From Fimicolochytrium jonesii (lineage: Eukaryota), in contig NW_026515682.1 of assembly GCF_025526975.1 (NCBI RefSeq), forward strand, positions 558,001 to 622,000: DNA of 64,000 nucleotides, in the 5' to 3' direction. A program made the position numbers and the translations under genes. The notes below the pieces were generated by a model that saw only the letters and a list, made by a program, of their open reading frames with translations, searched no databases and was not told the origin of the DNA. How positions within the stretch are numbered: the first letter of the stretch is position 1; each line of letters starts with the position of its first letter. Shown here one piece after another: positions 1-13,072 of this stretch.

Positions 1-119
1 CAGTTACCCCGCGGTTGCCCATACGTCTGCCGACCGCTGTGCAGACACCATTGCAATCACCCCCGCGATTTGAGTTCCCACCGTCTGTCCATCGCCACTT
101 GCCCGAAGCAATTGCAGAC

Positions 120-3100
120 ATGGTCAGCGAGAATTCCGGCGATGACGACGGGCAGCACCAGCAGCGAGGGCTTTCACCTGTGGAAAGGGGTCTGCAAGGT
201 CCGTTGAACCTCCCCGCTCCTATCCCTTTCCCTTTTCCCAGCACACCGGGTGGATCCCTGGTGCTTGAACCCCCGCCTCCACCACCAATTCAACGACCCC
301 GCCCGCAGACGCATGCCAGCACGAAGGTTTCCCTTCACCGAGTCCGTAATCACAATCAAGTGCAAAGGGAGCCCCTGACAACCTTCCTCGGCAATGTTCA
401 CGTCCTTGTGCGCCACACCACGTTCTTTCTCAAGTACTACCTTGGTGAGTTTTTGAGGTACACTGTATATTTCCCATAATATTTCCCATAACAATGTCCT
501 GACTGCTACATCTGCCCACCCCACCACAGCTGATCATCCTCTACACGATTTCCCGGACATCACCGACAAGCACATCAGTGTGATGTTTGAGCTGCTCAAC
601 AATCCAGGCTACAACGGCAATCCGGTCATCGCGCAAGAGTTGCGTCCACGGGTTCAAGAGTACTGTAATGTTCACGGATTTGCCCCCATCCGCATGCGAA
701 ATAGCCAACAGACCGCAGCGTACACCGCTCAGAGCATCTTCACCAACCTCAAAGTCAACGTATAGGAGCATTTTATGCAAATGTTTCTGCGCTATGTCAA
801 TGAACGGCTTGGTTTGAAGCAAGTTGTACTGCATCTCCGGAGAGCGCAGCGGCAACACTATTATCGTTGTGTCCGCCAATTCACAAAGTACGCGACATTT
901 GAAGAGTACCCAACGGAAGAGGAGCTTGCCGGCCTCACACGACTTGAGCGGACTCTCCTCGACGAGTTATGGGCTCTGTTTCCTCCCCAGGATGAGCCGC
1001 TTGCGTACAGCCTTGCGGTGGACGCAATGCCATATTTAGGTGAGTCAGCATATTTCCGCCCCCCCCCCCCCCCCCTCGGCTTCCTCTTTTGTCTAATCAT
1101 GGTTCACACCTGCCTCTCCACAGGTGCCTATTGTGAGCTCTCACGCCTCTATGAGCGCCGTGGAATGCAGCTGTTTTCCGCTATCCCGCTGCGCAAATCT
1201 CGAATCCAGTCATCTGTTCGGATCGACACGCTGATCCTAGGCACTCATATCCTGGATATCGGCCAACGTCGCATGGGGAAACTCACTGATGAACGCAAGC
1301 AGGAGCTGTGGGGGCAGTTCCTCAATGTGAATGTAAGTTAAGTCTGTCCCCTTCTGTGCTTGATTCAATCAGATTGCGTCGCTGAATGACGGATTGTAGG
1401 ACAAGGTCTTCAAACATCGAAAGAAGCTTGGTCTCAAGTTCGATGGGTCAATTAGCACCGACGGGTATTCCGCTACCATCCACTTCAAGAAGCCAGGGCT
1501 CAAGTACGGCCATCGCGCCCGGAAGCGCAGCAAAGCCCAAATGCAGGAAGAAGTCAAACAGCTGTATTTTGAGCACCACATTGACGACTTAAGGGAGGCT
1601 TCAAACATCGTCTGCATTGATCCGGGCAAGCGTGACCTCCTATTCTGTTGAGACAACAAGAAGGAGCGGCCATTTCGGTAAGTTTCAGTTGATTACTACT
1701 GCCCTGCTGTCCCCACCATCCCCCCCCCCCCCCCCAACCCTCGATTTTGCGGAAGATGGTGCGGAGGTGTTTGTGGACGTTGACTTGGAAGGGGTGGTTC
1801 CCCTGTTTGCGGACACGGGCAACGAAGTCGGTCCAGACGGCGTTGGCGGCTTCCGCAGCAGCCATGTTGGCAACGAGGGCCTCGGTGGCGCTGATCATGT
1901 TGTAGCAATTGCCACCGTTGCGGATCTGGGCAAGGAGTTTGTTGATGGAGTTGGACGATGACAGAGCCATCTACAGGGATGCCGCCCGCCGATGACGGAG
2001 GGTTGAAGGTCTTGGCAAGGCTGTTCGCAAGGGTGGCGATGGCTTCATTGTAGACAGCGGTGTCGCCGGCCATGTTGAATGGGAGTTCGGCAAAGCTGAC
2101 TGAGAAGCGTTTGCGGATGAGGGAGCGGACGCTGTTGGTTTGCTCGTTGCGCGTCATATCCACCTCTTCCCTGCTCGTCGCGTGGCCCATGTTGATGACC
2201 TGCATGATGGTGTCAAGGCCAGCCCTGTCCTCGTCCCCGTCCCCATCTTCCCCCCCCCCCCCCCCCCCCCTCACCGTCCCCACCATCTGTTGCCGCGTCC
2301 TCACAATGCACCACCCCATATCAGATACACATCCAATCAACGGGCGTTCGAGACAAAGTCTCGGTACTTTCAAAGAGACATGACAGAGCGAAAGATCAAT
2401 GCCGGCGTTGCTGAGATGGAATCACATATTCCGTCGCACAAGAGCATGAACATCGAGGCGCTCTCAGCGTTCATTGTGGATTACGAACATGCGGGTATGA
2501 TGTTCTACTTCAACTTTGATTTTCAAATTTGGTAATACAGGGGCTGACATCCATATCCCAGATCCAGCCCTGGATGAGTTTTACCAGGATGAGATTCACG
2601 TAGCTCGCAGATTCAAGGCGTTCTCACTGCGGCAAAAGTCTGAGAGCAAGCTCATCAAGAACATGCGACGCCTGTATGGAAAGCATTTTGAGGTCATCTT
2701 GGGTGATTGGAGCGACGCTGGAAAAACCATGCGCTTTCAGGAGTCATCAAAGACCAAGGGGTGAGTGACTATCATTGGTAGTAGCTACGATGTATTATAA
2801 TATGCTAACTCATCATGGAAATCAGATTCCGCACACTCTTTGCGAGAAACAGCATTCCATGCTACTTGCCGGATGAGCATCGAATGTCCTCCGTGTGCCC
2901 AGACTGCCACGGCCGTGTGAAGAAAAACATCCGACAGCGGCTGTCATCTCGGCCATGGCAAGCTAGAAAGGGAAGAATGGAATATATCCATGGATTGGTG
3001 GGTTGCCCCAACCCCGAATGTATCAACCAAGACTGGACACCATTTGAGATTCCTGGAAGACGACCACTACGGATGAAAGTGCACAATCGGGACATCCTAA

Positions 3101-3183
3101 GCACCAAGAATTTCCTCTTGATTGTGCGTTTGGTGGTGTTTGGCAATGGCCGCAGACCAGACGCATTCTCCCGTAACCGGTAG
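120..3183 (+). pseudogene. Fz1: Fanzor1 (TnpB/Cas12-like RuvC RNA-guided endonuclease), 7 exons, ~682 aa, with two in-frame stops
   Basis: Exons 120-444, 530-1039, 1124-1332, 1400-1677, 2325-2494, 2562-2760 and 2826-3183 join in frame across GT-AG introns (85, 84, 67, 647, 67, 65 nt), most with a CTRAY-like branch point. Motifs: TNLKVNV*EHFMQMFLRYVN (resembles SpuFz1, from memory), FDGSISTDGYS, RuvC-I VCIDPGKRDLL, FRYTSNQR, VILGDWS, RuvC-II DEHRMSS, Zn ribbon CPDC...CPNPEC, RuvC-III NRDILSTKN. Stops: TAG 763-765 and TGA 1649-1651. Confidence 0.93.
1721..2287 (-). other. ~567-bp insertion in Fanzor intron 4 carrying a frameshifted antisense coding-like fragment
   Basis: A 12-bp direct repeat GTCCCCACCATC lies at 1709-1720 and 2276-2287, with poly-C tracts at both ends. 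Removing the insert shrinks the intron from 647 to 80 nt, like the other introns. Minus-strand ORFs 1696-2373 and 1554-1970 span it. Confidence 0.6.
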
Positions 3184-3300
3184 TCTCGAATTTTCACCCC
3201 ATTCCATTTTCCGTGGTGGTTATCTGCCATCCACATCATTGTACCTCTGCTGGAGGCGTCGCCGATGATGGCAACTTGTAAAGTTTCTGTAGATATCTGT
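3184..3300 (+). ncRNA. Putative Fanzor omegaRNA (scaffold to ~3281, guide from downstream flank)
   Basis: ~98 nt after the stop codon are conserved between the two copies and end abruptly at ...GGCAACTTGTAA (3281). Stems: GTGGTGG/CCATCCAC, and CATCATTG/CGATGATG enclosing CCTC/GAGG. Confidence 0.7.
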
Positions 3301-3475
3301 AAGGAAAATTGTTTCCTCCACCCCGCTTTGACCGTTTTCCACAAGTCGGAAAAGAAACACTTTGCGTCACAGTTCTGTTGAAGGCATCACGTTCATGTGA
3401 AATGTACAGTATACACAAAAATTTCCAGCCCCGACAACAAACGAACCCTTCCACACACACCAACCCAGTCCCCCC

Positions 3476-6034
3476 CTACCGCCGATAATAATGCCTCTTA
3501 AAATGGAACCAAAGCTGCAACACGCCCCGATCAAAACTGCTCCTAAACCCCTTCTTATGGCTATACTCCCACTCCCGATTCACAATCTTGAACGCGATAT
3601 CCTCGTACGGCGGCCCGGCTTTGAACCGCAGGATGATGGTGTCGTCTTGCGCTTTGCTGTTGGTTGGGTCGGTTGGGTCTACCGCCGTGGAGGTTGAGGT
3701 GGGGTCTTTTTCGCGGACGTAGGTTGGGGCGATGGATTTGTCGATTAGGTCCGGGTAGAAGATGTTGAATTTGTAGCCTTGGACGACCTGTTTAGTGGAT
3801 CTTGTTAGTGGGGTGTGGTCGGGTGGGGGGTGGGTGGGTTCTCTAAGGATGAATAGGGAGAGCCTTACCTTGGGAGGAGGGTTATCGCCATCATAATGCG
3901 TCTGGTTATACTTATTCCACTCGTATCCTGTATGCACACGGTTAAAGTAGCGCGGTTTACGTGGACGGTACTTATCCTGCCACAGGTACGTATCCTACAA
4001 AAGCCATAGAGTCAACACCAATGCCAGGCGGTAAGTCAGTCGATATTGTAGTTACCTGCGACGCGGAAATGACAACAGCCTCCTCGTTGAACGCGGCCTC
4101 GTCCATGCCCATGTTCTCGGCCGCGTCGCGGATGAAGGCCTTCTCGGCAACGTCTTCCATGGATTGGTTGGCGCCGACAAGGGCGAGGGCTTGGTGGGCG
4201 GGCGGGCCACCGAGGGCTTTTGTGACTTTTTCTCGGAGTGCAATCTAAAGGAAGGAAGGGGGAGTATCAGTTTCTGGAACATACGGATATTCGTGACGAC
4301 AGTATAGCCGCAACCCACCAACTGCCTCAAATCCTCCTCCTCATCCACAACCTCAAACCCGGCATCCGCCTTGGGTATCCTCCCACACACCACGGGCCCC
4401 ATACTCTCCTCATATTCTTCCACCTCCCCATCACTCTCCTCCTCCTCCTCCCTACCGCCCACGTCCACATCCATCTCATCCTCCTCCACATCCGCCCGCC
4501 CACTGCGCACATGCTGCACAAGGATCCGCGGTTGTTGTGAAGCGCCAGAGTCCTGATTGAGCGCGCGCTGCTCACGGAGTCGGTCGAGACGTTTGCTGAG
4601 GAGGAAGGAATGCATGTCGCGGAGTTTCGCTTTGGCTTTCCAGACTACTAGGGCTTTGATCGCTGCTTCCCAGTAGTCCACGTCAACAGGCGGTGCGGGT
4701 TCACTCATAGACGATGCGCCGGTGAGAGCAGCAGCAGCGGCCCCCGCGGCAGCCAACTTTTTCTCAATCTGCGTTTGGAGGATGCTGAGCTGGTCGTAGG
4801 TTTTGTTGGAGAACATCCGCTCGATGTCCTGCGTTACGGCTTTGCTGACGCCTGAAGAGCGCCCGCCGGAGGAGAGATCTTCGCGGTGTCGGCTGAGCTC
4901 GTCGTCGCAGACGACGATCATAGCCTCCCAGAAGCGTTTGTTGGTGTGGTCGGTTTCCAGGGAGAGGTACAGCTGAATATCCTTATGCAGCTCCTCGACT
5001 TCTGGGAGGGAGAGGTTACGGAAGATGAGGTAGGGCTCCTCAACGCCCATTTCCAACCCCAGGGCGTCAAACTCCTCCGCCAGTTTCGTGTCGCTCGCCA
5101 AACTGAGATTCATAGCGAGGATATCAATCGGCTTAGCCCGCCCCTCCTTGATCCTGATCTGCGCCCTTGTCTTCGCCTGACCCAAATGAAACTCATTCTC
5201 TTTCGCCTCCCAATCCCCCAACGCCAGTCGGTCCTGCTCCCGCTGCAGCCGCGCCTGCTCCTCCTCTCTCAACTGCATCTCGATCTCGCGCTCGTTACGT
5301 CTGCGTTTCAGTTTGGATAGCTCGTCCTCAACTTCTTCGCGGCGTGACATGTCCCGCCTGGCGCGCTCGGCAGCCGATAACCCGCTCTTACTCTCCTTCT
5401 CGCGTTTCTTCAGCCATAAAAACTTATTCGACAGGTTACTGTCCCCGAACGGGTTCTCGGTGTTGGAGTAACCCAACGAAGCAGACATCTGCGCAGCGAG
5501 CTGGGACTCCTTCTGAGCCTGGATCTCGTCCTTCAGCTGCTGTTTCTCGAGTTTGCGCTCGGCTTTGCGGATTTTCTTCTCGACGGAGGTTTCCCGTTGC
5601 TTTTTGGGCTTTTTTGAACTGCTTTTGGATTTGCTGCCGCTTCGGCTCCCACTGCGGTCGTCACGCTTTTCGGCTTTGCTAGTTCGCTTCCGCTTCCGAG
5701 ACCGGTCATGCTCGGAATCAGACGAAACTGAACCGCTGTCGCTGCCCCGTCCACGCTCATCACCCCCTCGTCGCCGCCTCCCACCCCCATCCTCACTAAC
5801 CACCGGACTACGATTCCTACTCCCCCTGTGATCCCGGCTATCATCCCGCCTCCTCCGCACACGATCATCCTCCACCGAGCGATCCCGCCCCCGTCGCCGG
5901 TCATCATCCCAATCCCGATCCCAATCCCGACTTTTGTCGTCCCTCCGGTCCCTGCGTAAGGTCTCTGAATCTCCCCGCCGCGGTAAGCTCGTGGACCTGC
6001 TTCGGTCGCGGTGGGATTTGTAGCGGTCGCCCAT
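3476..6034 (-). CDS. CACTIN: Cactin (spliceosome-associated factor), 4 exons, ~780 aa
   Basis: Exons 6034-4319, 4244-4056, 3994-3869 and 3787-3476 with GT-AG introns. RS/RD-rich N-terminus. Cactin_mid motifs YSNTENPFGD and RIKEGRAKPIDIL. C-terminal KYRPRKPRYFNRVHTGYEWNKYNQTHYD...GYKFNIFYPDLIDK...AGPPYEDIAF...FHFKRHYYRR. Confidence 0.96.
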
Positions 6035-6178
6035 TGGGTGTGATAGGGTGTAAGCGGAAACTGGGGGCGAAAGTTACTCGACCGGCGAAATGTAAGGTCC
6101 GTGAGGGAGTCGGTTCAGGCACGAAAACTAGCCGCTGGAAGCGAAATACATGGTCTTTTGCAGGTTGCGATCGTCGAT

Positions 6179-6218
6179 GAGTTGGGCAAGTTTGCGAGTT
6201 GGGCAAGTTTGCGAGTTG
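6179..6218. repeat. 17-bp tandem duplication upstream of cactin
   Basis: GAGTTGGGCAAGTTTGC x2 followed by GAGTTG. Confidence 0.8.
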
Positions 6219-6437
6219 ATAGTTAGGGCTTTCCTCAGCGAATTAAAGTTTTATAAGGTGCCATGTGACATATGTTCGTTTATTTACTGGACTTCTTCCC
6301 ATCTGGCAGTGGGAACTTCTAACAGAGAGAGCTGGGACCTCCCATTCCCCTCCAATTTGCAAAAGTCCGACGGTCACGTCGCAAATTTTTCTATACAAAA
6401 AGCGAGGGTCCATCTATATAAACAAAAGTCTGTCTCA

Positions 6438-7889
6438 TCAATTCGGCGTCCCACCCGCCTGCAACCGATAGATAACCAACACAACCCCCCTACTCTCCAC
6501 CCTCGGCCCCAGCTCTACCTTAACTACCTTATCATCATCACATCTATACCACTGCGGCAGTCCCCTCAACCTCGTATACGTCAGAAAATGTCCCTCGGTC
6601 TGCGTGACGAAGCCGTGCAGTCTATAAAACGTCTTTTGGTCGGATTGGCGGTTGGAGAGGTAGAACCCGAGATCGACTTCGGTAGGGAGTTCTACGGGGG
6701 TGTTGTGGTAGGTTTGGGGGGTGGTGGGGTCGAGTGGGCGTTGAAAGTAGATGGTGAAGAAGTGGGGAAGGACGGTGATGCGGGTTTGGGTTTTGCGAGG
6801 GGGTGGGCGGGGTGTTGGAGGTGTGAGGGGGCGGCCGGTGGGTGGGTGGAAGGAAGAATGGGAGGAGGGCGACGAGGTGGAGGAGGATGAGGTCGGTGGG
6901 GTGGGGAGTTGAGATTTCATGAGTGAGCGGTTGTTGAAGGCGCCCCCAAAGAAGAACGTCGCGACCGCGTGGCCCAGGTGGTCGTTTAGCAACGAGAGCA
7001 GGGTCACGCAGTCGTTGCGGGAATACTGGGCGAGCGATATCTTGAGGAACTTTGCAGTTTCGTGGTTCGATTTCGCTCGCTTGCTTCCATTCTGTGTTGT
7101 CCCGTTCTCCTTAGCTCCCTCCGTGGTCCCGTTCTCCACACCTTCCTCGTGGGTAGAATCACCATCGGTATCCACATGCGCATTCCGATCGCCCACCCTT
7201 CCCGCCCTTTCCGGGACACAATCCGGATGTGGCCCGTGCACCAACCCAATCTGAAACCGCTGCCCGAATCTCGTCAACAGCAACACATCATCAAACAACG
7301 TGCTCAAAATCGAGTCCACGCTCTCATGAGGCAGCGTATGTCTCGCATCAGGGCTATCATCATGCGGAACCCGAGATGCGCTCCTCCACCATTCCAACTC
7401 CAGCGAATCGGCCGATGCCACGCGTGGCGAGGGCACGTCGTCGGAAACGGGGTTCCCGTGTAATTGGAGCACAGTGCACACAAAATCGGATACTGCGGCG
7501 TAGGGCGATGCGACGGGTAGCTCTTCGTTCAGATCAGGTAGGGTAGTGAAGGCTTGTAGGAGGGCGTTTAGAGCTGACCGGGGTTTGGAGTTGTGCGGGT
7601 TCGGGAGGCCCTGCAGGAAGCTTTGCGAAATAAAGCGGCAGTGAGAAGATGCGCTGAATGAGTGAATTCTGACGACTTGACTCACTCATTCGGAGGATAG
7701 CTAATACACGGCTCATTCAGTTTCTCTTCCTGAGGTGGATATACAATTACTGTAGGGAGGGGACGACGCCAGGAGCGTGAGAAAGGGGTTCCGTCTATTG
7801 CATTTTCCCACGACCCCGACGCGCAAAAAAAAAGGCTGGCACGTAACAAACCACATACCTTGTGGGTTCATCACCTTGAGATTCACCAT
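6438..7889 (-). CDS. Ubiquitin-specific protease (peptidase C19)-like protein, probably catalytically inactive
   Basis: Long ORF 6438-7685. His box YRLHGFVTQTEGHFLTY...WYRCDDDKV and a degenerate Cys box GLPNPHNSKPRSALNALLQAF. Tentative exons 7889-7859, 7749-7686, 7620-6438; the 5' structure is uncertain. Confidence 0.65.
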
Positions 7890-8214
7890 GGTGATAGTGC
7901 GATAGGAGAGGATATCAGCCAACTGCTTCAGAAACTGGGTGGGATGTTGGAAGAGGTCAGGGCGCGATTGAACAGGATGTGGGTGGCTTGCAAGCGGGTT
8001 GCTCCTGAAGACGGGCGATCGTTCTGTACGTGGGCGAGGGCCCGGTGGTCGGCGGCTGAGGGTAGCTCGGTATCTTTCCTCGTCGCTGATTGCTACCCCT
8101 GGTTGTTGTCTGTGGGAACAGGGACGGATGGTGGAGTGTTGTTGAGGCGAAGCTTGCCCTAAGTCGAGAAGGCTTCAAGACCAAGGCTATGGGCAACAAA
8201 AGGGACGTGACGGC

Positions 8215-8332
8215 TTGGTTGTGGCCATTAGATGTTACAAGTTGCCATCATCGGCGACGCCTCAGGCAGAGGTACAATGATGTGGATGGCCGATAACCAC
8301 CACGGAAAATGGAATGGGGTGAAAATTCTAGA
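8215..8332 (-). ncRNA. Second putative Fanzor omegaRNA (same scaffold, different guide)
   Basis: The reverse complement of 8235-8332 matches 3184-3281 with a few substitutions. The flank beyond 8235 (CATCTAATGGCCACAACC...) is unrelated to the copy-1 flank. Confidence 0.7.
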
Positions 8333-9227
8333 CTACCGGTTACGGGAGAATGCGTCTGGTCTGCGGCCATTGCCAAACACCACCGAACGCACAATCAAGA
8401 GGAAATTCTTGGTGCTTAGGATGTCCCGATTGTGCACTTTCATCCGTAGTGGTCGTCTTCCAGGAATCTCAAATGGTGTCCAGTCTTGGTTGATACATTC
8501 GGGGTTGGGGCAACCCACCAATCCATGGATATATTCCATTCTTCCCTTTCTAGCTTGCCATGGCCGAGATGACAGCCGCTGTCGGATGTTTTTCTTCACA
8601 CGGCCGTGGCAGTCTGGGCACACGGAGGACATTCGATGCTCATCTAGCAAGTAGCATGGAATGCTGTTTCTTGCAAAGAGTGTGCGGAATCTGATTTCCA
8701 TGATGAGTTAGCATATTATAATACATCGTAAGTACTACCAATGATAGTCACTCACCCCTTGGTCTTTGATGACTCCTGAAAGCGCATGGTTTTTCCAGCG
8801 TCGCTCCAATCACCCAAGATGACCTCAAAATGCTTTCCATACAGGCGTCGCATGTTCTTGATGAGCTTGCTCTCAGACTTTTGCCGCAGTGAGAACGCCT
8901 TGAATCTGCGAGCTACGTGAATCTCATCCTGGTAAAACTCATCCAGGGCTGGATCTGGGATATGGATGTCAGCCCCTGTATTACCAAATTTGAAAATCAA
9001 AGTTGAAGTAGAACATCATACCCGCATGTTCGTAATCCACAATGAACGCTGAGAGCGCCGCGATGTTCATGCTCTTGTGCGACGGAATATGTGATTCCAT
9101 CTCAGCAACGCCGGCATTGATCTTTCGCTCTGTCATGTCTCTTTGAAAGTACCGAGACTTTGTCTCGAACGCCCGTTGATTGGATGTGTATCTGATATGG
9201 GGTGGTGCATTGTGAGGACGCTGCAAC
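8235..9227 (-). pseudogene. Fz1: 5'-truncated inverted Fanzor1 copy (exons 5-7 plus 3' end)
   Basis: Near-identical inverted duplicate of 2288-3281. ORFs 8333-8701, 8752-9000 and 8981-9226 mirror copy 1. Lacks the N-terminus and RuvC-I. Confidence 0.92.
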
Positions 9228-9902
9228 GGAAAGTCTCGCCGCTTTTATCGCAGACGCTGCAACTACTCCGCCAAGCAAGCCAGGAAGGATGGCTACCCAA
9301 TGTGGAAGGATCGCGGCGAAAGCAAGTAGAAGGTATCGGTGGCGACAAGTAGCCATACATGGAAAGGCGAGTCACACATCCCACATTATAAAGCAAGCAA
9401 AACACTGAACTCAACCGCATCGCCGACAAGACCTCATCCCTGATATTCTCCCCCCTTACAAGCTGTCGGCGGAGATGCGGTCGGTGGCCAGAGGGGTATG
9501 GCAGGTTACGTAGCGGGTGGTAGTAGCGGGGACGATGTCGACGGAATCATTGGAACTTTCCTTGCCAGAGCTGGTGGGGGGAAGAGGACGACCAGGAGAA
9601 AGACGCTGGAGCGGGACGTCGTCCATTGAAGGGATGGGACATGGCAATATGAAGGTACTCGGCGAGTGAGGCTTTGGAGACGGAAGTGATGGACAGGGGA
9701 GAGTGGGGCGAGCAACCATGCCGTCCGTTCATATCATACAGTATCATCCCGCGAGCCCTCCTGCCCGCAACGGTTCGATGACATGGACGCAATGAACTTA
9801 ACTAGCCGAGCTCAACTGCCCCCCCACCAATCGCCTCCCAGCCCTCGGTACATTGCGTACATATACCGGCTTGCCTCGTCTGCAAGAAGGTGAGAGTACG
9901 TA

Positions 9903-11130
9903 CAGTATGTGACTATATGTCTGCGACCACCCGTGACTTCCAGGTCGGGAAAAGCACCATGGATACATTGCAATTCAGGAGCGGGTCAGCATTACCGCAG
10001 TCAAGTGAACCGTGAAAGTCTTTCAAAACGACGACCCCAGCGATCCCAACTCCTACCAGTCCAAGAAAAAACCAGGAAGACCTGCTAAGTGGCAACCTTC
10101 ACCGCCTGAAATTGAGCAACTTCAGCAGCTTGTCATGGCTGACAACGAGACCAGGAGGAAATCACTCGCAGTTCTTACAATTGAATTCACAGCTCTCTTC
10201 CGTATCAATGTTTACAAAAAGACGGTGCGACAGTATCTCCGAAAACACTTGGACCTCCATTCGCGGTACAAAATTCGGAAACCAATGTTAACTGATTGGC
10301 ATCGGGCTGCGAGACTTGCGTTTGCATTGGAGCATCAGAATTGGACGTACGCTGACTGGTCACGGGTGGTTTGGACTGACGAAACATCGTTTGAAATTGG
10401 GTGGGTCCCTAAAATGCGATGCTGGCGCCTTCGGACTGAAGCTCTCCATCCCGATTGCGTACAGGTCACACAGAGGAGCAGCCGTAAAACATTCATGTAT
10501 TGGGGAGCCTTCATAGGGAATGCCATTGGCCCAATGAACGAGGTGGAGCGAGTTCAGCGTCCTGGCGAAAACCGTAGAGGTATCAACTCAACTGCTTATG
10601 TTGCACACTTGACAACTCACATGTTGCCCTTGTGGCATAATCTTGAGATTTTTATCCCCAATCTGATTTTCATGCAGGACAACGCACCTATCCACACCAG
10701 CGCTGAAACCTGACAATTCTTCAACAAACACGGCATTGAGGTTATGCCCTGGCCTGCTCAAAGTCCCGACCTCAACCCAATTGAGAACCTCTGGGTGATG
10801 ATGAAGCGGGAGGTCTCGGCAGCCAATGCAACGGCAACGACAGTAGATGAGGTAGTGAAGAACCTTTGGCCAACGATGGGTAGGTATCTGGACAATTTAG
10901 TTAGATCCATGCCAAGGAGAATGGCTGCGGTGATAGCTGCCAACGGGGGAAGCACAAAGTATTAGGAGACTGATGCCGTGCCGTGGTTTAGGATGATTGT
11001 GGTATCCACAACTCACTTTGACTGGGCAGAAATCAACATTGCGGCGACCATCGAAGCCGTCAACTTAATGGCAGCGCGCAATGGACACTGACTTAATCAC
11101 GTGAGGTCGCAGACATATAGTCACATACTG
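9903..11130 (+). mobile_element. Tc1/mariner DNA transposon (DD34E), defective
   Basis: Perfect 26-bp TIRs CAGTATGTGACTATATGTCTGCGACC at 9903-9928 and 11105-11130; TA TSD at 9901-9902 and 11131-11132. Confidence 0.95.
9958..10965 (+). pseudogene. Tc1-like DD34E transposase with in-frame stops
   Basis: VWTDET...FMQDNAPIH...WPAQSPDLNPIENLW with 34 residues between D and E. TGA at 10006-10008 and 10711-10713. The N-terminus appears truncated. Confidence 0.92.
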
Positions 11131-11261
11131 TACTGTACAGTATGAAAAAAGAGTGAGGTCGCACACACGCGCACACGACGGAACCAACCCGCTCCACCCC
11201 GTCTTTCCGGCCCCCGAGGAACATGTGCAAGTCTGGCGAAACAAAACACTTGGCGACCCCT

Positions 11262-11299
11262 TGTTGGAGGTATAATCCCCCCGAGTCCCCGGTTAGGGT
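11262..11299 (+). mobile_element. First 38 bp of a copia family-A/B LTR, interrupted by a gypsy LTR
   Basis: TGTTGGAGGTATAATCCCCCCGAGTCCCCGGTTAGGGT matches the LTR starts at 13073 and 37593. Confidence 0.8.
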
Positions 11300-13072
11300 T
11301 GTAACGTCAGAGGAAACGTAGACGATACTGGGCCCTTCCGAGAGGGCTGAGAGCAGTGTATTGTAGTGAAGAAAAAAGTAAGAAGTTCTTTGCAGCGGCC
11401 GCTCGACTGACAGCTTTATATATGGGCTGCCAGTGGGGCTTGCGTGGCTTCAGTGAGGCTTGACGCCTTATGTAATGTATCACCGAGAGCTCGGGTGGCC
11501 AGCCAGGGTCTCGGATCAAGTAGAAGTAAAGAAAAATAATATGAAATACAAGTGAAGATGAGATATCCTTGACACTTCCCTCAGATCCTGAGGAGGGCGC
11601 CGAATAAATAAGAGGTGAACTACGAGGGATATGTGAAGAAAGGGAGAGCTCATGTTCATTTTAAAGTGTTGACGCACTTGTTCATTTTATAGCGTTGACG
11701 CACTGTGTGATGTGTGTGTTTGAGGCAAAGGCGTCCCTAAGCCGACGTCGTGTGTGATGTGTGTGTATAAGGTCGGTTCTTGCGTCGCCGAGCGTGATGT
11801 GATGTAGTTTACGTTGCTTTTGTCAGCAGTGTGATTGATAGTGAGCGGTTCTTGCGGCGTCGTGCGTGTGATGTGATATGAGATGCTCTATGCTGTTCGT
11901 CTCCGTATCCACAAAGATTGTGGATGAGCTTTTCACCATCGTTTGTAGGCAGGCGTGCAGCGAAGTGCGGATTTGGGTTCCCAAGTAGGGTCGGGATAAC
12001 CGAGCCCTTTGACTAGAAGATTTCGTACGGCGCGTCGCTCGTCGATGATATCTTCTACAACCCATTCAGGTTGTCCGCGTTCTTCGATTGGCGGATGAGG
12101 TTGTGGAACTGCACATTGCGGATATTGCTCTTCGCGATGTGGTCGTAAAATATCGACGTGAAAGATGGGCCAGATGCCGCTGATCTTTGATGGTGATAAA
12201 TCGAGTTTGTAGGTATCAGGATGTGCTCCCAGTGCGATGACTTTGAATGGTCCGATCCACGTAGCTGAGTATCGAAGTGCTCTTTGAGCATCTACTTCTA
12301 GGTTGATTCCTTGTCGATTTAGATCGACGAGGTCGCCAATTTTGTATGCAATTGGCGTTCGACCTTTGTCGTGTTGATGTGCAAATTGGTCTTGCGATCT
12401 CTGAAGTTTTTTGAGTACAATGCGGGCGATGTCTTCCTGCCCTTTCTTGAAGAGTTCGATTTCATTCCAATCAACAGCTCGAAGTTTGAGTTCTTGTCCT
12501 TCGAGAGTGGGATTCCAACCCGGGAGGATTGGAGAGCGTCCGAGATCTACTTCGAATGGCGATAAACCTTCATATTCCTCCCTCGGAGCAGTGTTGTATG
12601 CGAATTCGATTAAAGGCAATAGTTTCTTCCAATTGCTTTTGTCATAGTTGGGATATTGCTTCCAAATCCTTTTCAGGGTTTGGATGGCTTGCTCAACTTT
12701 GCCGTCGGTTTGATGATGACGAGCCGTAGCGAATTCGTGTTTTACACCGAGGAGAATATGGAATGCAAGGAAGAAGTCAGAAAGTGCGCCAGGTTCGCGA
12801 TCCGTAAAGAAGACTTTTGGCGTACCGACATGTTTCCAAACATGATCTAGAAAGACTTGGGCTAGTTTGCGTCCAGTGATTGTCTTCTTGATCGGTGTCA
12901 GAACCACACGTCCGGAAAGATAATCAATGCAGACGAGACAAGAGTTTGTTTCATCTACTTTGAAAATGTTGAATCCGATCGTGTGCCATCTTCCAAAAGG
13001 TATAGGAAGAGGTCGAAGAAATCCGTATCGACGCTGACCAGGTTTGAATTGTCAACAGGATTTACAAGTTCC
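11300..13072 (-). mobile_element. Ty3/gypsy chromovirus 3' fragment (integrase + chromodomain, 3' LTR 11300-11574)
   Basis: ORF 11933-12907 has HHQTDGKVEQ, WIGPFKV, WPIFHVDILRP and EWVVEDIIDER...PTWEP. TG...CA LTR with an adjacent purine tract on the minus strand; tandem repeats in the 3' UTR (~11650-11880). Confidence 0.85.

What the first reader, a model, noticed from the sequence alone, without database searches (positions are those of the whole stretch)
120..3281. Six-intron Fanzor1 RNA-guided nuclease hidden from the ORF track, fully reconstructable
Seen: seven exons splice in frame to ~682 aa with all three RuvC catalytic motifs (IDPG, DEHR, NRD) and a CxxC...CxxxxC zinc ribbon. The only stop lesions are TAG 763 and TGA 1649, each revertible by one T>C change (to CAG and CGA). 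Established: Fanzors are eukaryotic TnpB/Cas12 relatives guided by an omegaRNA encoded at the element's 3' end. Inference: this is a recently inactivated copy of an intron-rich SpuFz1-like ortholog with a Pro-rich N-terminal extension; intact copies may exist elsewhere and the protein could be resurrected.
Basis: partly seen in the sequence, partly recalled or inferred. Interest (0 to 1): 0.88.

Follow-up and report, generated by a model that had tools for sequence, protein, structure and literature searches.

The report
Decayed six-intron chytrid Fanzor1 copy
This is a broken copy of a six-intron fungal jumping-gene nuclease (Fanzor1) whose family has stop-free members in public databases, so it is mostly ordinary; the points of note are introns likely gained in this lineage and a piece of a host gene lodged in one intron.

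Summary
The seven-exon model is right: 682 codons, six GT-AG introns, stops at 763 and 1649, 45% identical to SpuFz1. 'Recent' and 'fully reconstructable' are not supported. The frame is open from base 3, and 15 of 57 family gene models start about 31 residues before the window. The copy also has three substitutions around catalytic E581 and a change at the omegaRNA base that pairs with C6 in SpuFz1. It is among the more diverged copies (37th of 48). Stop-free paralogs are already annotated in Fimicolochytrium jonesii (761 and 693 aa). Fragments of this copy and of a second, 5'-truncated copy (8235-9230) are listed as putative Fanzors in Yoon 2023, Table S2. Intron 4 holds a 479-nt antisense, decayed fragment of a host GBP-like GTPase gene. 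None of the six intron sites is shared with intronless SpuFz1 or five metagenomic relatives. Two TAM-reading residues differ from SpuFz1. The scan noted similar dead intron-split Fanzors in other fungi, but none of this family. Verdict: new member of a known kind.

The parts
3..444 (+). Exon 1, 5'-incomplete in the window. Pro-rich, predicted disordered extension, then the first WED strand. Family start about 31 codons upstream of base 3.
   Evidence: pLDDT below 50 for residues 1-39 and 41-129 of paralog P0039
445..529 (+). Intron 1 (85 nt, GT-AG, phase 1)
   Evidence: 11 of 14 family models agree
530..1039 (+). Exon 2 (REC); premature TAG at 763-765 where paralogs and SpuFz1 (Q148) have Gln
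1040..1123 (+). Intron 2 (84 nt, phase 1)
   Evidence: 12 of 14
1124..1332 (+). Exon 3 (REC/WED)
1333..1399 (+). Intron 3 (67 nt, phase 0)
   Evidence: 21 of 25
1400..1677 (+). Exon 4 (WED, RuvC-I IDPG at 1616); premature TGA at 1649-1651 where 27 of 30 paralogs have Arg
1678..2324 (+). Intron 4 (647 nt, phase 2), C-rich with poly-C tracts, holding a foreign insert
   Evidence: 28 of 32
1742..2220 (-). 479-nt antisense fragment of a host GBP-like P-loop GTPase gene (P0048 residues 187-373; 128 of 158 aligned residues identical; 29-codon deletion, one frameshift), between the hexamers AACCCT (1736) and AGCCCT (2221)
2325..2494 (+). Exon 5 (RuvC insertion helices)
2495..2561 (+). Intron 5 (67 nt, phase 1)
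   Evidence: 37 of 39
2562..2760 (+). Exon 6 (RuvC, lid region)
2761..2825 (+). Intron 6 (65 nt, phase 2)
   Evidence: 39 of 39
2826..3183 (+). Exon 7: RuvC-II Glu (DEHR at 2872, with P579, H582, M584 departing from the family), zinc finger, RuvC-III NRD at 3085, stop TAG 3181-3183
3206..3280 (+). Candidate 75-nt omegaRNA scaffold and element right end, ending in TA. Position 20 (nt 3225) is T here and G in copy B. Predicted guide is the next ~15 nt.
   Evidence: positions compared with PMC10432273 section 10
8235..9230 (-). Copy B: 5'-truncated inverted copy (end of intron 4, exons 5-7, omegaRNA candidate 8236-8310); 13 differences in 996 nt from copy A; 11-nt direct repeat at its truncation junction

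Best explanation
This is a pseudogenised copy (two in-frame stops, further substitutions, a foreign insert in intron 4) of a multi-copy, six-intron SpuFz1-like Fanzor1 gene that likely rides a non-autonomous DNA transposon in a chytrid fungus, most likely Fimicolochytrium jonesii. How an intact copy would work: splicing gives a ~760-aa protein with a basic, probably nuclear-targeting, disordered N-terminus (inferred). It binds a ~90-nt omegaRNA made of the 75-nt right end plus ~15 nt of flank (inferred from SpuFz1). The likely purpose is to cut the empty donor site so that repair copies the element back (proposed in the literature, shown for bacterial TnpB, not for Fanzor). This copy can make at most a product cut off at the first stop, in REC. 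It decayed by neutral, C>T/G>A-rich drift (12 of 28 departures can be explained that way), took up a host-gene fragment in its C-rich intron 4, probably by microhomology-templated repair (inferred), and shares a recent ancestor with the truncated inverted copy 5 kb away.
For: Splice model and stops. Exon hits to SpuFz1. Paralog P0039 against SpuFz1 E 4.6e-149 over residues 129-759. AlphaFold model of P0039 (pLDDT 76.8) matches SpuFz1 structures first (Foldseek E 1e-49, TM 0.83-0.87 by target), then PpFz1 and GtFz1, then Cas12/TnpB. 57 F. jonesii-labelled proteins at mostly 80-98% identity, on many contigs. These form one branch, support 100, with a Gaertneriomyces protein as sister (quick tree). 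Two copies agree up to ...CTTGTAA and then diverge. The scaffold is 75 nt and ends in TA, with 10 of 16 (copy B) and 9 of 16 (copy A) of the SpuFz1 omegaRNA positions named in the paper matching without gaps. Decay measures.
Against: No left end or terminal inverted repeat could be seen: it lies outside the window, and no inverted match of the right end was found near either copy. Transposon status therefore rests on copy number and the shared right end. The omegaRNA candidate folds no better than shuffles (z -0.7 and -0.85), the two copies show no covariation, and there is no Rfam match. All six splice sites and the D-E-D and four-Cys residues are intact and there is no frameshift, so decay is not advanced. 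No expression, splicing or cleavage data were available.
Confidence: 0.9

Rival explanations
1. One reading: a very recently killed copy whose two stops are the only lesions that matter, so that it would otherwise be an active nuclease.
For: No frameshift; all GT-AG sites, catalytic D/E/D and zinc Cys kept. Both stops are single C>T transitions from the family residues. The insert has no donor-like or branch-plus-AG motif in my scan, so intron 4 might still splice.
Against: P579, H582 and M584 flank the catalytic Glu and are absent from 39, 39 and 38 of 39 paralogs. Eleven positions carry residues shared with none of the other aligned paralogs, the stops apart. Divergence rank is 37 of 48. The insert has already drifted 19% from its donor protein. 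G20 of the omegaRNA is lost.
Confidence: 0.12
2. The protein is dead, but copies A and B still act like Spu-1 'ghost' loci and supply omegaRNAs with new guides to intact paralogs in trans. This is compatible with the main reading.
For: Both keep the full 75-nt scaffold. Copy B keeps C6 and G20. Two of the three A/B differences fall in a predicted hairpin loop. Ghost omegaRNAs work with SpuFz1 (PMC10432273, passages).
Against: Copy B lacks the element's 5' half and any left end, so its transcription is unexplained. Copy A has lost G20. Neither predicted guide has a match closer than 3 mismatches elsewhere in the window (64 kb only).
Confidence: 0.25
3. The stops are recoded or are assembly errors and the locus is a live gene.
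For: Only two stops in 682 codons.
Against: TAG ends both this gene and the neighbouring cactin gene, so it is a working stop. Paralogs have Gln and Arg there, not the Trp that A-to-I editing would give. Many other family models are also fragmented.
Confidence: 0.02
4. The family is a domesticated host gene family, not a mobile element.
For: Intron-rich structure; no transposase linked to the copies and no TIR seen.
Against: Dozens of mostly broken copies on many contigs; only 2 clean full-length models carry all motifs, the third being chimeric. Sharp shared right end ending in TA. Spu-1 also has no transposase of its own (PMC10432273, passage).
Confidence: 0.03

Closest known systems
SpuFz1 / Spu-1 element of Spizellomyces punctatus (PDB 8GKH; Saito et al. 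2023, PMC10432273)
   Same: 275 of 612 aligned residues identical; same domain order and catalytic D-E-D; 75-nt right-end scaffold ending in TA with the conserved 5' UUUUCCG and loop positions; many copies, most partial; no own transposase seen.
   Different: SpuFz1 is a single ORF (1917 nt for 638 aa), against six introns here. The N-terminal extension is about 130 aa against about 20. TAM-contacting R96 and N133 align with G and A in this family, while Q129, Q130 and Y345 are kept, so the TAM may differ from CATA. Mg-ligand N385 is G (the DPG motif). Inverted repeats could not be tested.
Putative Fanzor hits from Fimicolochytrium jonesii (Yoon et al. 2023, PMC10711439, Table S2)
   Same: 33 rows from this species, including KAI8820010.1 (exact product of exons 6-7 of this copy) and KAI8820013.1 (exact product of copy B).
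   Different: All 33 rows are fragments, the longest 410 aa. The full-length models P0039, P0040 and P0008 were not found there by accession. The main text does not mention the species or introns.
Intron-containing Fanzors (Jiang et al. 2023, PMC10530073; e.g. Chlamydomonas CrFNuc)
   Same: Intron gain up to about 9.6 per kb, N-terminal NLS and multi-copy spread are described there (passages); this gene has about 2.9 introns per kb of coding sequence.
   Different: Different clade and transposon association; that paper gives no position-level intron comparison within the SpuFz1 clade in the passages I read.
Gaertneriomyces sp. protein KAJ3177236.1 (P0056, 637 aa)
   Same: Closest non-family relative found, 54% identical, sister branch with support 99 (quick tree).
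   Different: No long N-terminal extension as annotated; its intron structure could not be seen.

Membership tests
Fanzor1 | RuvC D-E-D triad with the Glu six residues before the zinc finger (rearranged site) | tested here: met
   D422, E581 and D653 align with SpuFz1 D383, E541 and D606; six residues lie between E581 and C588; definition from PMC13565253 passage
Fanzor1 | DPG motif in RuvC-I and a four-Cys zinc finger | tested here: met
   IDPG at nt 1616, CPDC at 2896, CPNPEC at 3004
Fanzor1 | Enlarged REC/WED lobe and overall Fanzor1 fold | tested here: met
   Exon 2 hits the SpuFz1 REC; predicted model of paralog P0039 matches SpuFz1, PpFz1 and GtFz1 before any Cas12/TnpB
Fanzor1 | Eukaryotic, multi-copy, element-borne gene | tested here: met
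   Spliceosomal-type introns, cactin and Ty3/Tc1 neighbours, 57 labelled family proteins
Fanzor1 | omegaRNA scaffold at the right end with a variable 3' guide | tested here: inconclusive
   Shared 75-nt end and divergent flanks in two copies; 9-10 of 16 named SpuFz1 positions match; but fold z-scores are weak, there is no covariation and no expression data
Fanzor1 | RNA-guided, TAM-dependent DNA cleavage | not testable with these tools
   needs biochemistry
Active Fanzor1 gene (this copy) | Uninterrupted reading frame | tested here: not met
   Stops at 763 and 1649; met by paralogs P0039 and P0040
Spu-1 element family | Single intronless ORF at about 82% identity | tested here: not met
   Six introns, 45% identity, separate branch
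Spu-1-like TIR transposon | Terminal inverted repeats and target-site duplication | tested here: inconclusive
   Right end ends in TA; the left end is outside the window for copy A and deleted in copy B; no inverted match found

The most novel reading that the evidence does not exclude
The F. jonesii family is an uncharacterised, recently active SpuFz1-clade nuclease that gained six introns at positions found in no sampled relative while it stayed mobile. It has lost two of SpuFz1's TAM-reading side chains, so stop-free P0039 with the copy-B omegaRNA scaffold would cut at a different or looser TAM than CATA. Its C-rich intron 4 would act as a cargo site that takes up host gene fragments, making it a Pack-type Fanzor element.
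Probability: 0.25. Interest if true: 0.55.

Novelty: new member of a known kind. Interest (0 to 1): 0.3.

Why it matters
As a single locus it matters little: it is a dead copy, and its fragments are already in a published hit list. The useful leads are three. (1) A ready-made full-length SpuFz1 relative (P0039) plus a defined omegaRNA candidate with altered TAM-contact residues could widen Fanzor targeting range if active. (2) The clade shows 0, 1-2 and 6 introns at unshared positions, a compact case of fast intron gain in a transposon gene. (3) One copy has captured a host gene fragment inside an intron.

Tried and rejected
No whole genome is held for this window. No sequencing run was listed, so splicing, expression and the stops were not checked in reads. 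Pfam found no Fanzor family for single exons, P0039 or even SpuFz1 in the local copy, and NCBIfam none either; the precomputed PF26935 label on family proteins could not be named. Rfam: no match in 1-11500. I first read the 12-nt repeat at 1709-1720 / 2276-2287 as a target-site duplication of the intron-4 insert. I rejected this because two paralog models that read into intron 4 (P0043, P0054) show the same C-rich repeat unit as native intron sequence with no GTPase piece. The idea that the insert is a giant-virus capsid fragment (prompted by PMC12247965) was dropped once its homologs proved to be P-loop GTPases. The fold of P0048 was low-confidence (pLDDT 42) and was not searched. The protein atlas did not answer. 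No TIR was found in L002, L003 or L005, and the best inverted match in L002 was within shuffle range. A three-way automatic alignment of the omegaRNA candidates was uninformative. The careful tree did not finish, so only the quick tree is used. The Tc1/mariner at 9900-11133 has ends unrelated to the Fanzor right end, so I do not count it as the mobilising partner. The 23 viral-contig loci (21-28% identity) and the 66 more distant metagenome loci were not analysed beyond a motif scan and the flanks of 8 of them.
Full report
Observation. Joining the seven exons by coordinate gives 2049 nt, 682 codons plus a TAG, with six GT-AG introns, no frameshift and two in-frame stops, TAG 763 and TGA 1649. 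Exons 7, 4, 6 and 2, searched one at a time against PDB sequences, each hit SpuFz1 first (E 2e-27, 4.9e-17, 5e-17, 3.4e-22).

The family. Exon 7 found 13 proteins among 41 candidates, all labelled Fimicolochytrium jonesii, a spizellomycetalean chytrid. Cluster look-ups and two more searches brought the labelled set to 57 proteins on many contigs. Two of them are exact products of this window: P0014 of exons 6-7, and P0001 of a second copy. The window is therefore most likely from this species. Family models span the six junctions as modelled in 11/14, 12/14, 21/25, 28/32, 37/39 and 39/39 cases. These are automated models, not read evidence, and no runs were listed. Three models carry every motif I tested; P0039 (761 aa) and P0040 (693 aa) are clean and P0027 is chimeric. 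P0039 aligns with SpuFz1 over residues 129-759 (E 4.6e-149). Its AlphaFold model (pLDDT 76.8; residues 1-129 almost all below 50) matches SpuFz1, PpFz1 and GtFz1 ahead of Cas12 and TnpB. In a quick tree of 34 proteins, ten family members including this copy form one branch (support 100), sister to a Gaertneriomyces protein (99) and apart from Spu-1 (the careful search did not finish).

(a) Start: the frame is open from base 3 and matches P0039 from residue 32. About 31 codons lie outside the window. (b) Lesions: paralogs have Q (16/16) and R (27/30) at the stops, as guessed. But the copy departs from an 80% majority at 28 of 720 positions, stops included. Among them are P579, H582 and M584 around E581, where paralogs (39/39, 39/39, 38/39) and SpuFz1 have L, Y and T. 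A five-residue gap in REC is shared with 3 models, while 12 have the longer form, so it is a family variant. (c) Age: in the core it departs at 21 of 555 positions (3.8%), 37th of 48 rows; P0039 is at 1.8% and P0040 at 3.8%. It is not an unusually young copy.

Second copy and right end. A 5'-truncated inverted copy lies at 8235-9230 (13 differences in 996 nt). It begins at the 3' end of intron 4, with an 11-nt direct repeat at the junction, which suggests a repaired deletion (inference). It shares otherwise private residues with copy A (L487, H582, M584, I618) but has the family L and S where copy A has P579 and L666. The two agree up to ...CTTGTAA at 3281 and then diverge, which fixes the right end to within a base. 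Local transposition followed by deletion, or ectopic gene conversion, would both explain this; I cannot separate them.

omegaRNA. Counting back 75 nt from the terminal TA gives 3206-3280. Saito et al. describe a 75-nt scaffold with U5, C6, C7, stem-loop 1 bases U16-G22 and a C6:G20 pair near the active site (PMC10432273, sections 7 and 10 read; the pair also in PMC11423790, passages). Without gaps, copy B matches 10 and copy A 9 of the 16 positions I took from that text; the difference is position 20, G in B and T in A (nt 3225). A stem at positions 8-29 is predicted in both. A metagenomic relative at 41% identity (L002 and near-duplicate L003) has a similar 76-nt tail from TTTTTCCG to TTTGTA. 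A motif written after the fact from these examples occurs once in the 64-kb window (copy B) and in 2 of 95 loci. Against: fold z-scores of -0.71 and -0.85, no covariation, no Rfam hit. TAM contacts named in the paper: Q129, Q130 and Y345 are kept, R291 is kept in P0039 and P0040 (Q in this copy), but R96 aligns with G and N133 with A in all three. A TAM different from CATA is therefore plausible but untested.

Intron 4 insert. The 647-nt intron holds an antisense reading frame with GC3 of 0.77-0.80. It matches residues 187-373 of a 492-aa F. jonesii protein (P0048) conserved in Blyttiomyces and Cladochytrium. That protein has a P-loop and weak matches to guanylate-binding proteins (PDB E 2e-4; Pfam GBP below cut-off). 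The fragment has 128 of 158 residues identical, a 29-codon deletion and a frameshift; 15 of its 30 substitutions can be C>T or G>A. It lies between AACCCT (1736) and AGCCCT (2221), flanked by poly-C. Two paralog models that read into intron 4 show the C-rich flank without the insert, and the search found no other F. jonesii protein of 136 aa or more with it. I read it as a host-gene fragment copied in at microhomology; DNA or cDNA origin is open.

Intron history. SpuFz1 is 638 aa on 1917 nt, hence intronless (supplement row). Of the six closest metagenomic loci (37-46% identity), five were examined in detail (L003 duplicates L002). L001, L002, L004 and L006 share an intron-like break near P0039 residue 273; L002 and L006 have a second near 697; L004 has one near 648; L005 has only a frameshift. 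None lies at this family's six sites (178, 353, 423, 516, 572, 639). L001 ends at residue 702. The simplest reading is six gains on the line to this family; the nearest named relatives could not be checked.

Context. Cactin lies immediately downstream on the minus strand, a ubiquitin-hydrolase-like frame between the copies, a Tc1/mariner with 37-nt inverted repeats at 9900-11133, and nested Ty3/gypsy repeats beyond.

Literature. Intron gain, NLS gain and multi-copy spread of Fanzors are published (PMC10530073, passages). Yoon et al. list 33 F. jonesii rows among about 2500 putative Fanzors (PMC10711439, passages, section 27 and all 33 supplement rows seen), including the products of both copies here. 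All 33 are fragments of at most 410 aa. The species is absent from the searchable supplements of Saito (9 files, one scanned file not searchable) and Jiang (2 files with no hit even for Spizellomyces, so a weak negative). Library searches for Fanzor with Fimicolochytrium, jonesii, chytrid, intron, gene capture, Fanzor1 orthologs, IS607 and SpuFz1 showed no description of this family's gene structure, omegaRNA or activity; subscription papers are mostly not covered. Restorative homing as the function is from the review PMC13565253 (passages), where it is shown for TnpB/IscB and not for Fanzor. PMC12247965 (passages) is unrelated. That this species is a harmless soil saprobe and that PRRKRRK is NLS-like are recalled, not from a call.

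Verdict. It works like SpuFz1 when intact and meets the sequence and fold criteria of Fanzor1. This copy is a pseudogene and not a Spu-1 member. New member of a known kind; interest 0.3.

Noticed in passing
window 1742-2220 (-): Decayed fragment of a conserved chytrid GBP-like P-loop GTPase gene (P0048; about 64-71% identical across three chytrid genera, uncharacterised) inside Fanzor intron 4.
   Followed up: partly
window 9900-11133: Tc1/mariner element with 37-nt inverted repeats (95% complementary) and a broken transposase frame at 10009-10713 (Pfam HTH_Tnp_Tc3_2).
   Followed up: partly
window 3476-6073 (-): Cactin gene, convergent with the Fanzor, ending about 200 nt from the element's right end.
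   Followed up: partly
window 6438-7685 (-): Ubiquitin C-terminal hydrolase-like frame (Pfam UCH, E 4e-11) lying between the two inverted Fanzor copies.
   Followed up: no
window 11300-64000: Dense nest of Ty3/gypsy LTR retrotransposon copies at 70-97% identity to each other.
   Followed up: no
window 9231-9895: About 660 nt of unassigned sequence between copy B and the Tc1 element; on the minus strand near 9455 it contains CAGCTTGTAA, which resembles the element's right end. No Pfam match in its frames.
   Followed up: partly
L002 5944-6019 (also L003): Metagenomic two-intron Fanzor1 (41% identical to P0039) with an omegaRNA-like 76-nt tail from TTTTTCCG to TTTGTA and strong predicted hairpins.
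   Followed up: partly
protein P0082: F. jonesii gene model joining a tyrosine-recombinase-like N-terminus (Pfam Phage_integrase E 6e-4, below cut-off) to a piece of this Fanzor; may be a chance chimera of adjacent elements or a Crypton/DIRS link.
   Followed up: partly
proteins P0092, P0233-P0236: Phlyctochytrium arcticum has a cluster of six near-identical Fanzor1 proteins (489-693 aa), suggesting a recently active family; some rows from this species are in Yoon 2023 Table S2.
   Followed up: no
protein P0237 versus window 55346 and 60692: A paralog's gene model runs from Fanzor sequence into sequence matching a repeat of this window, suggesting a retrotransposon inserted into that copy.
   Followed up: no
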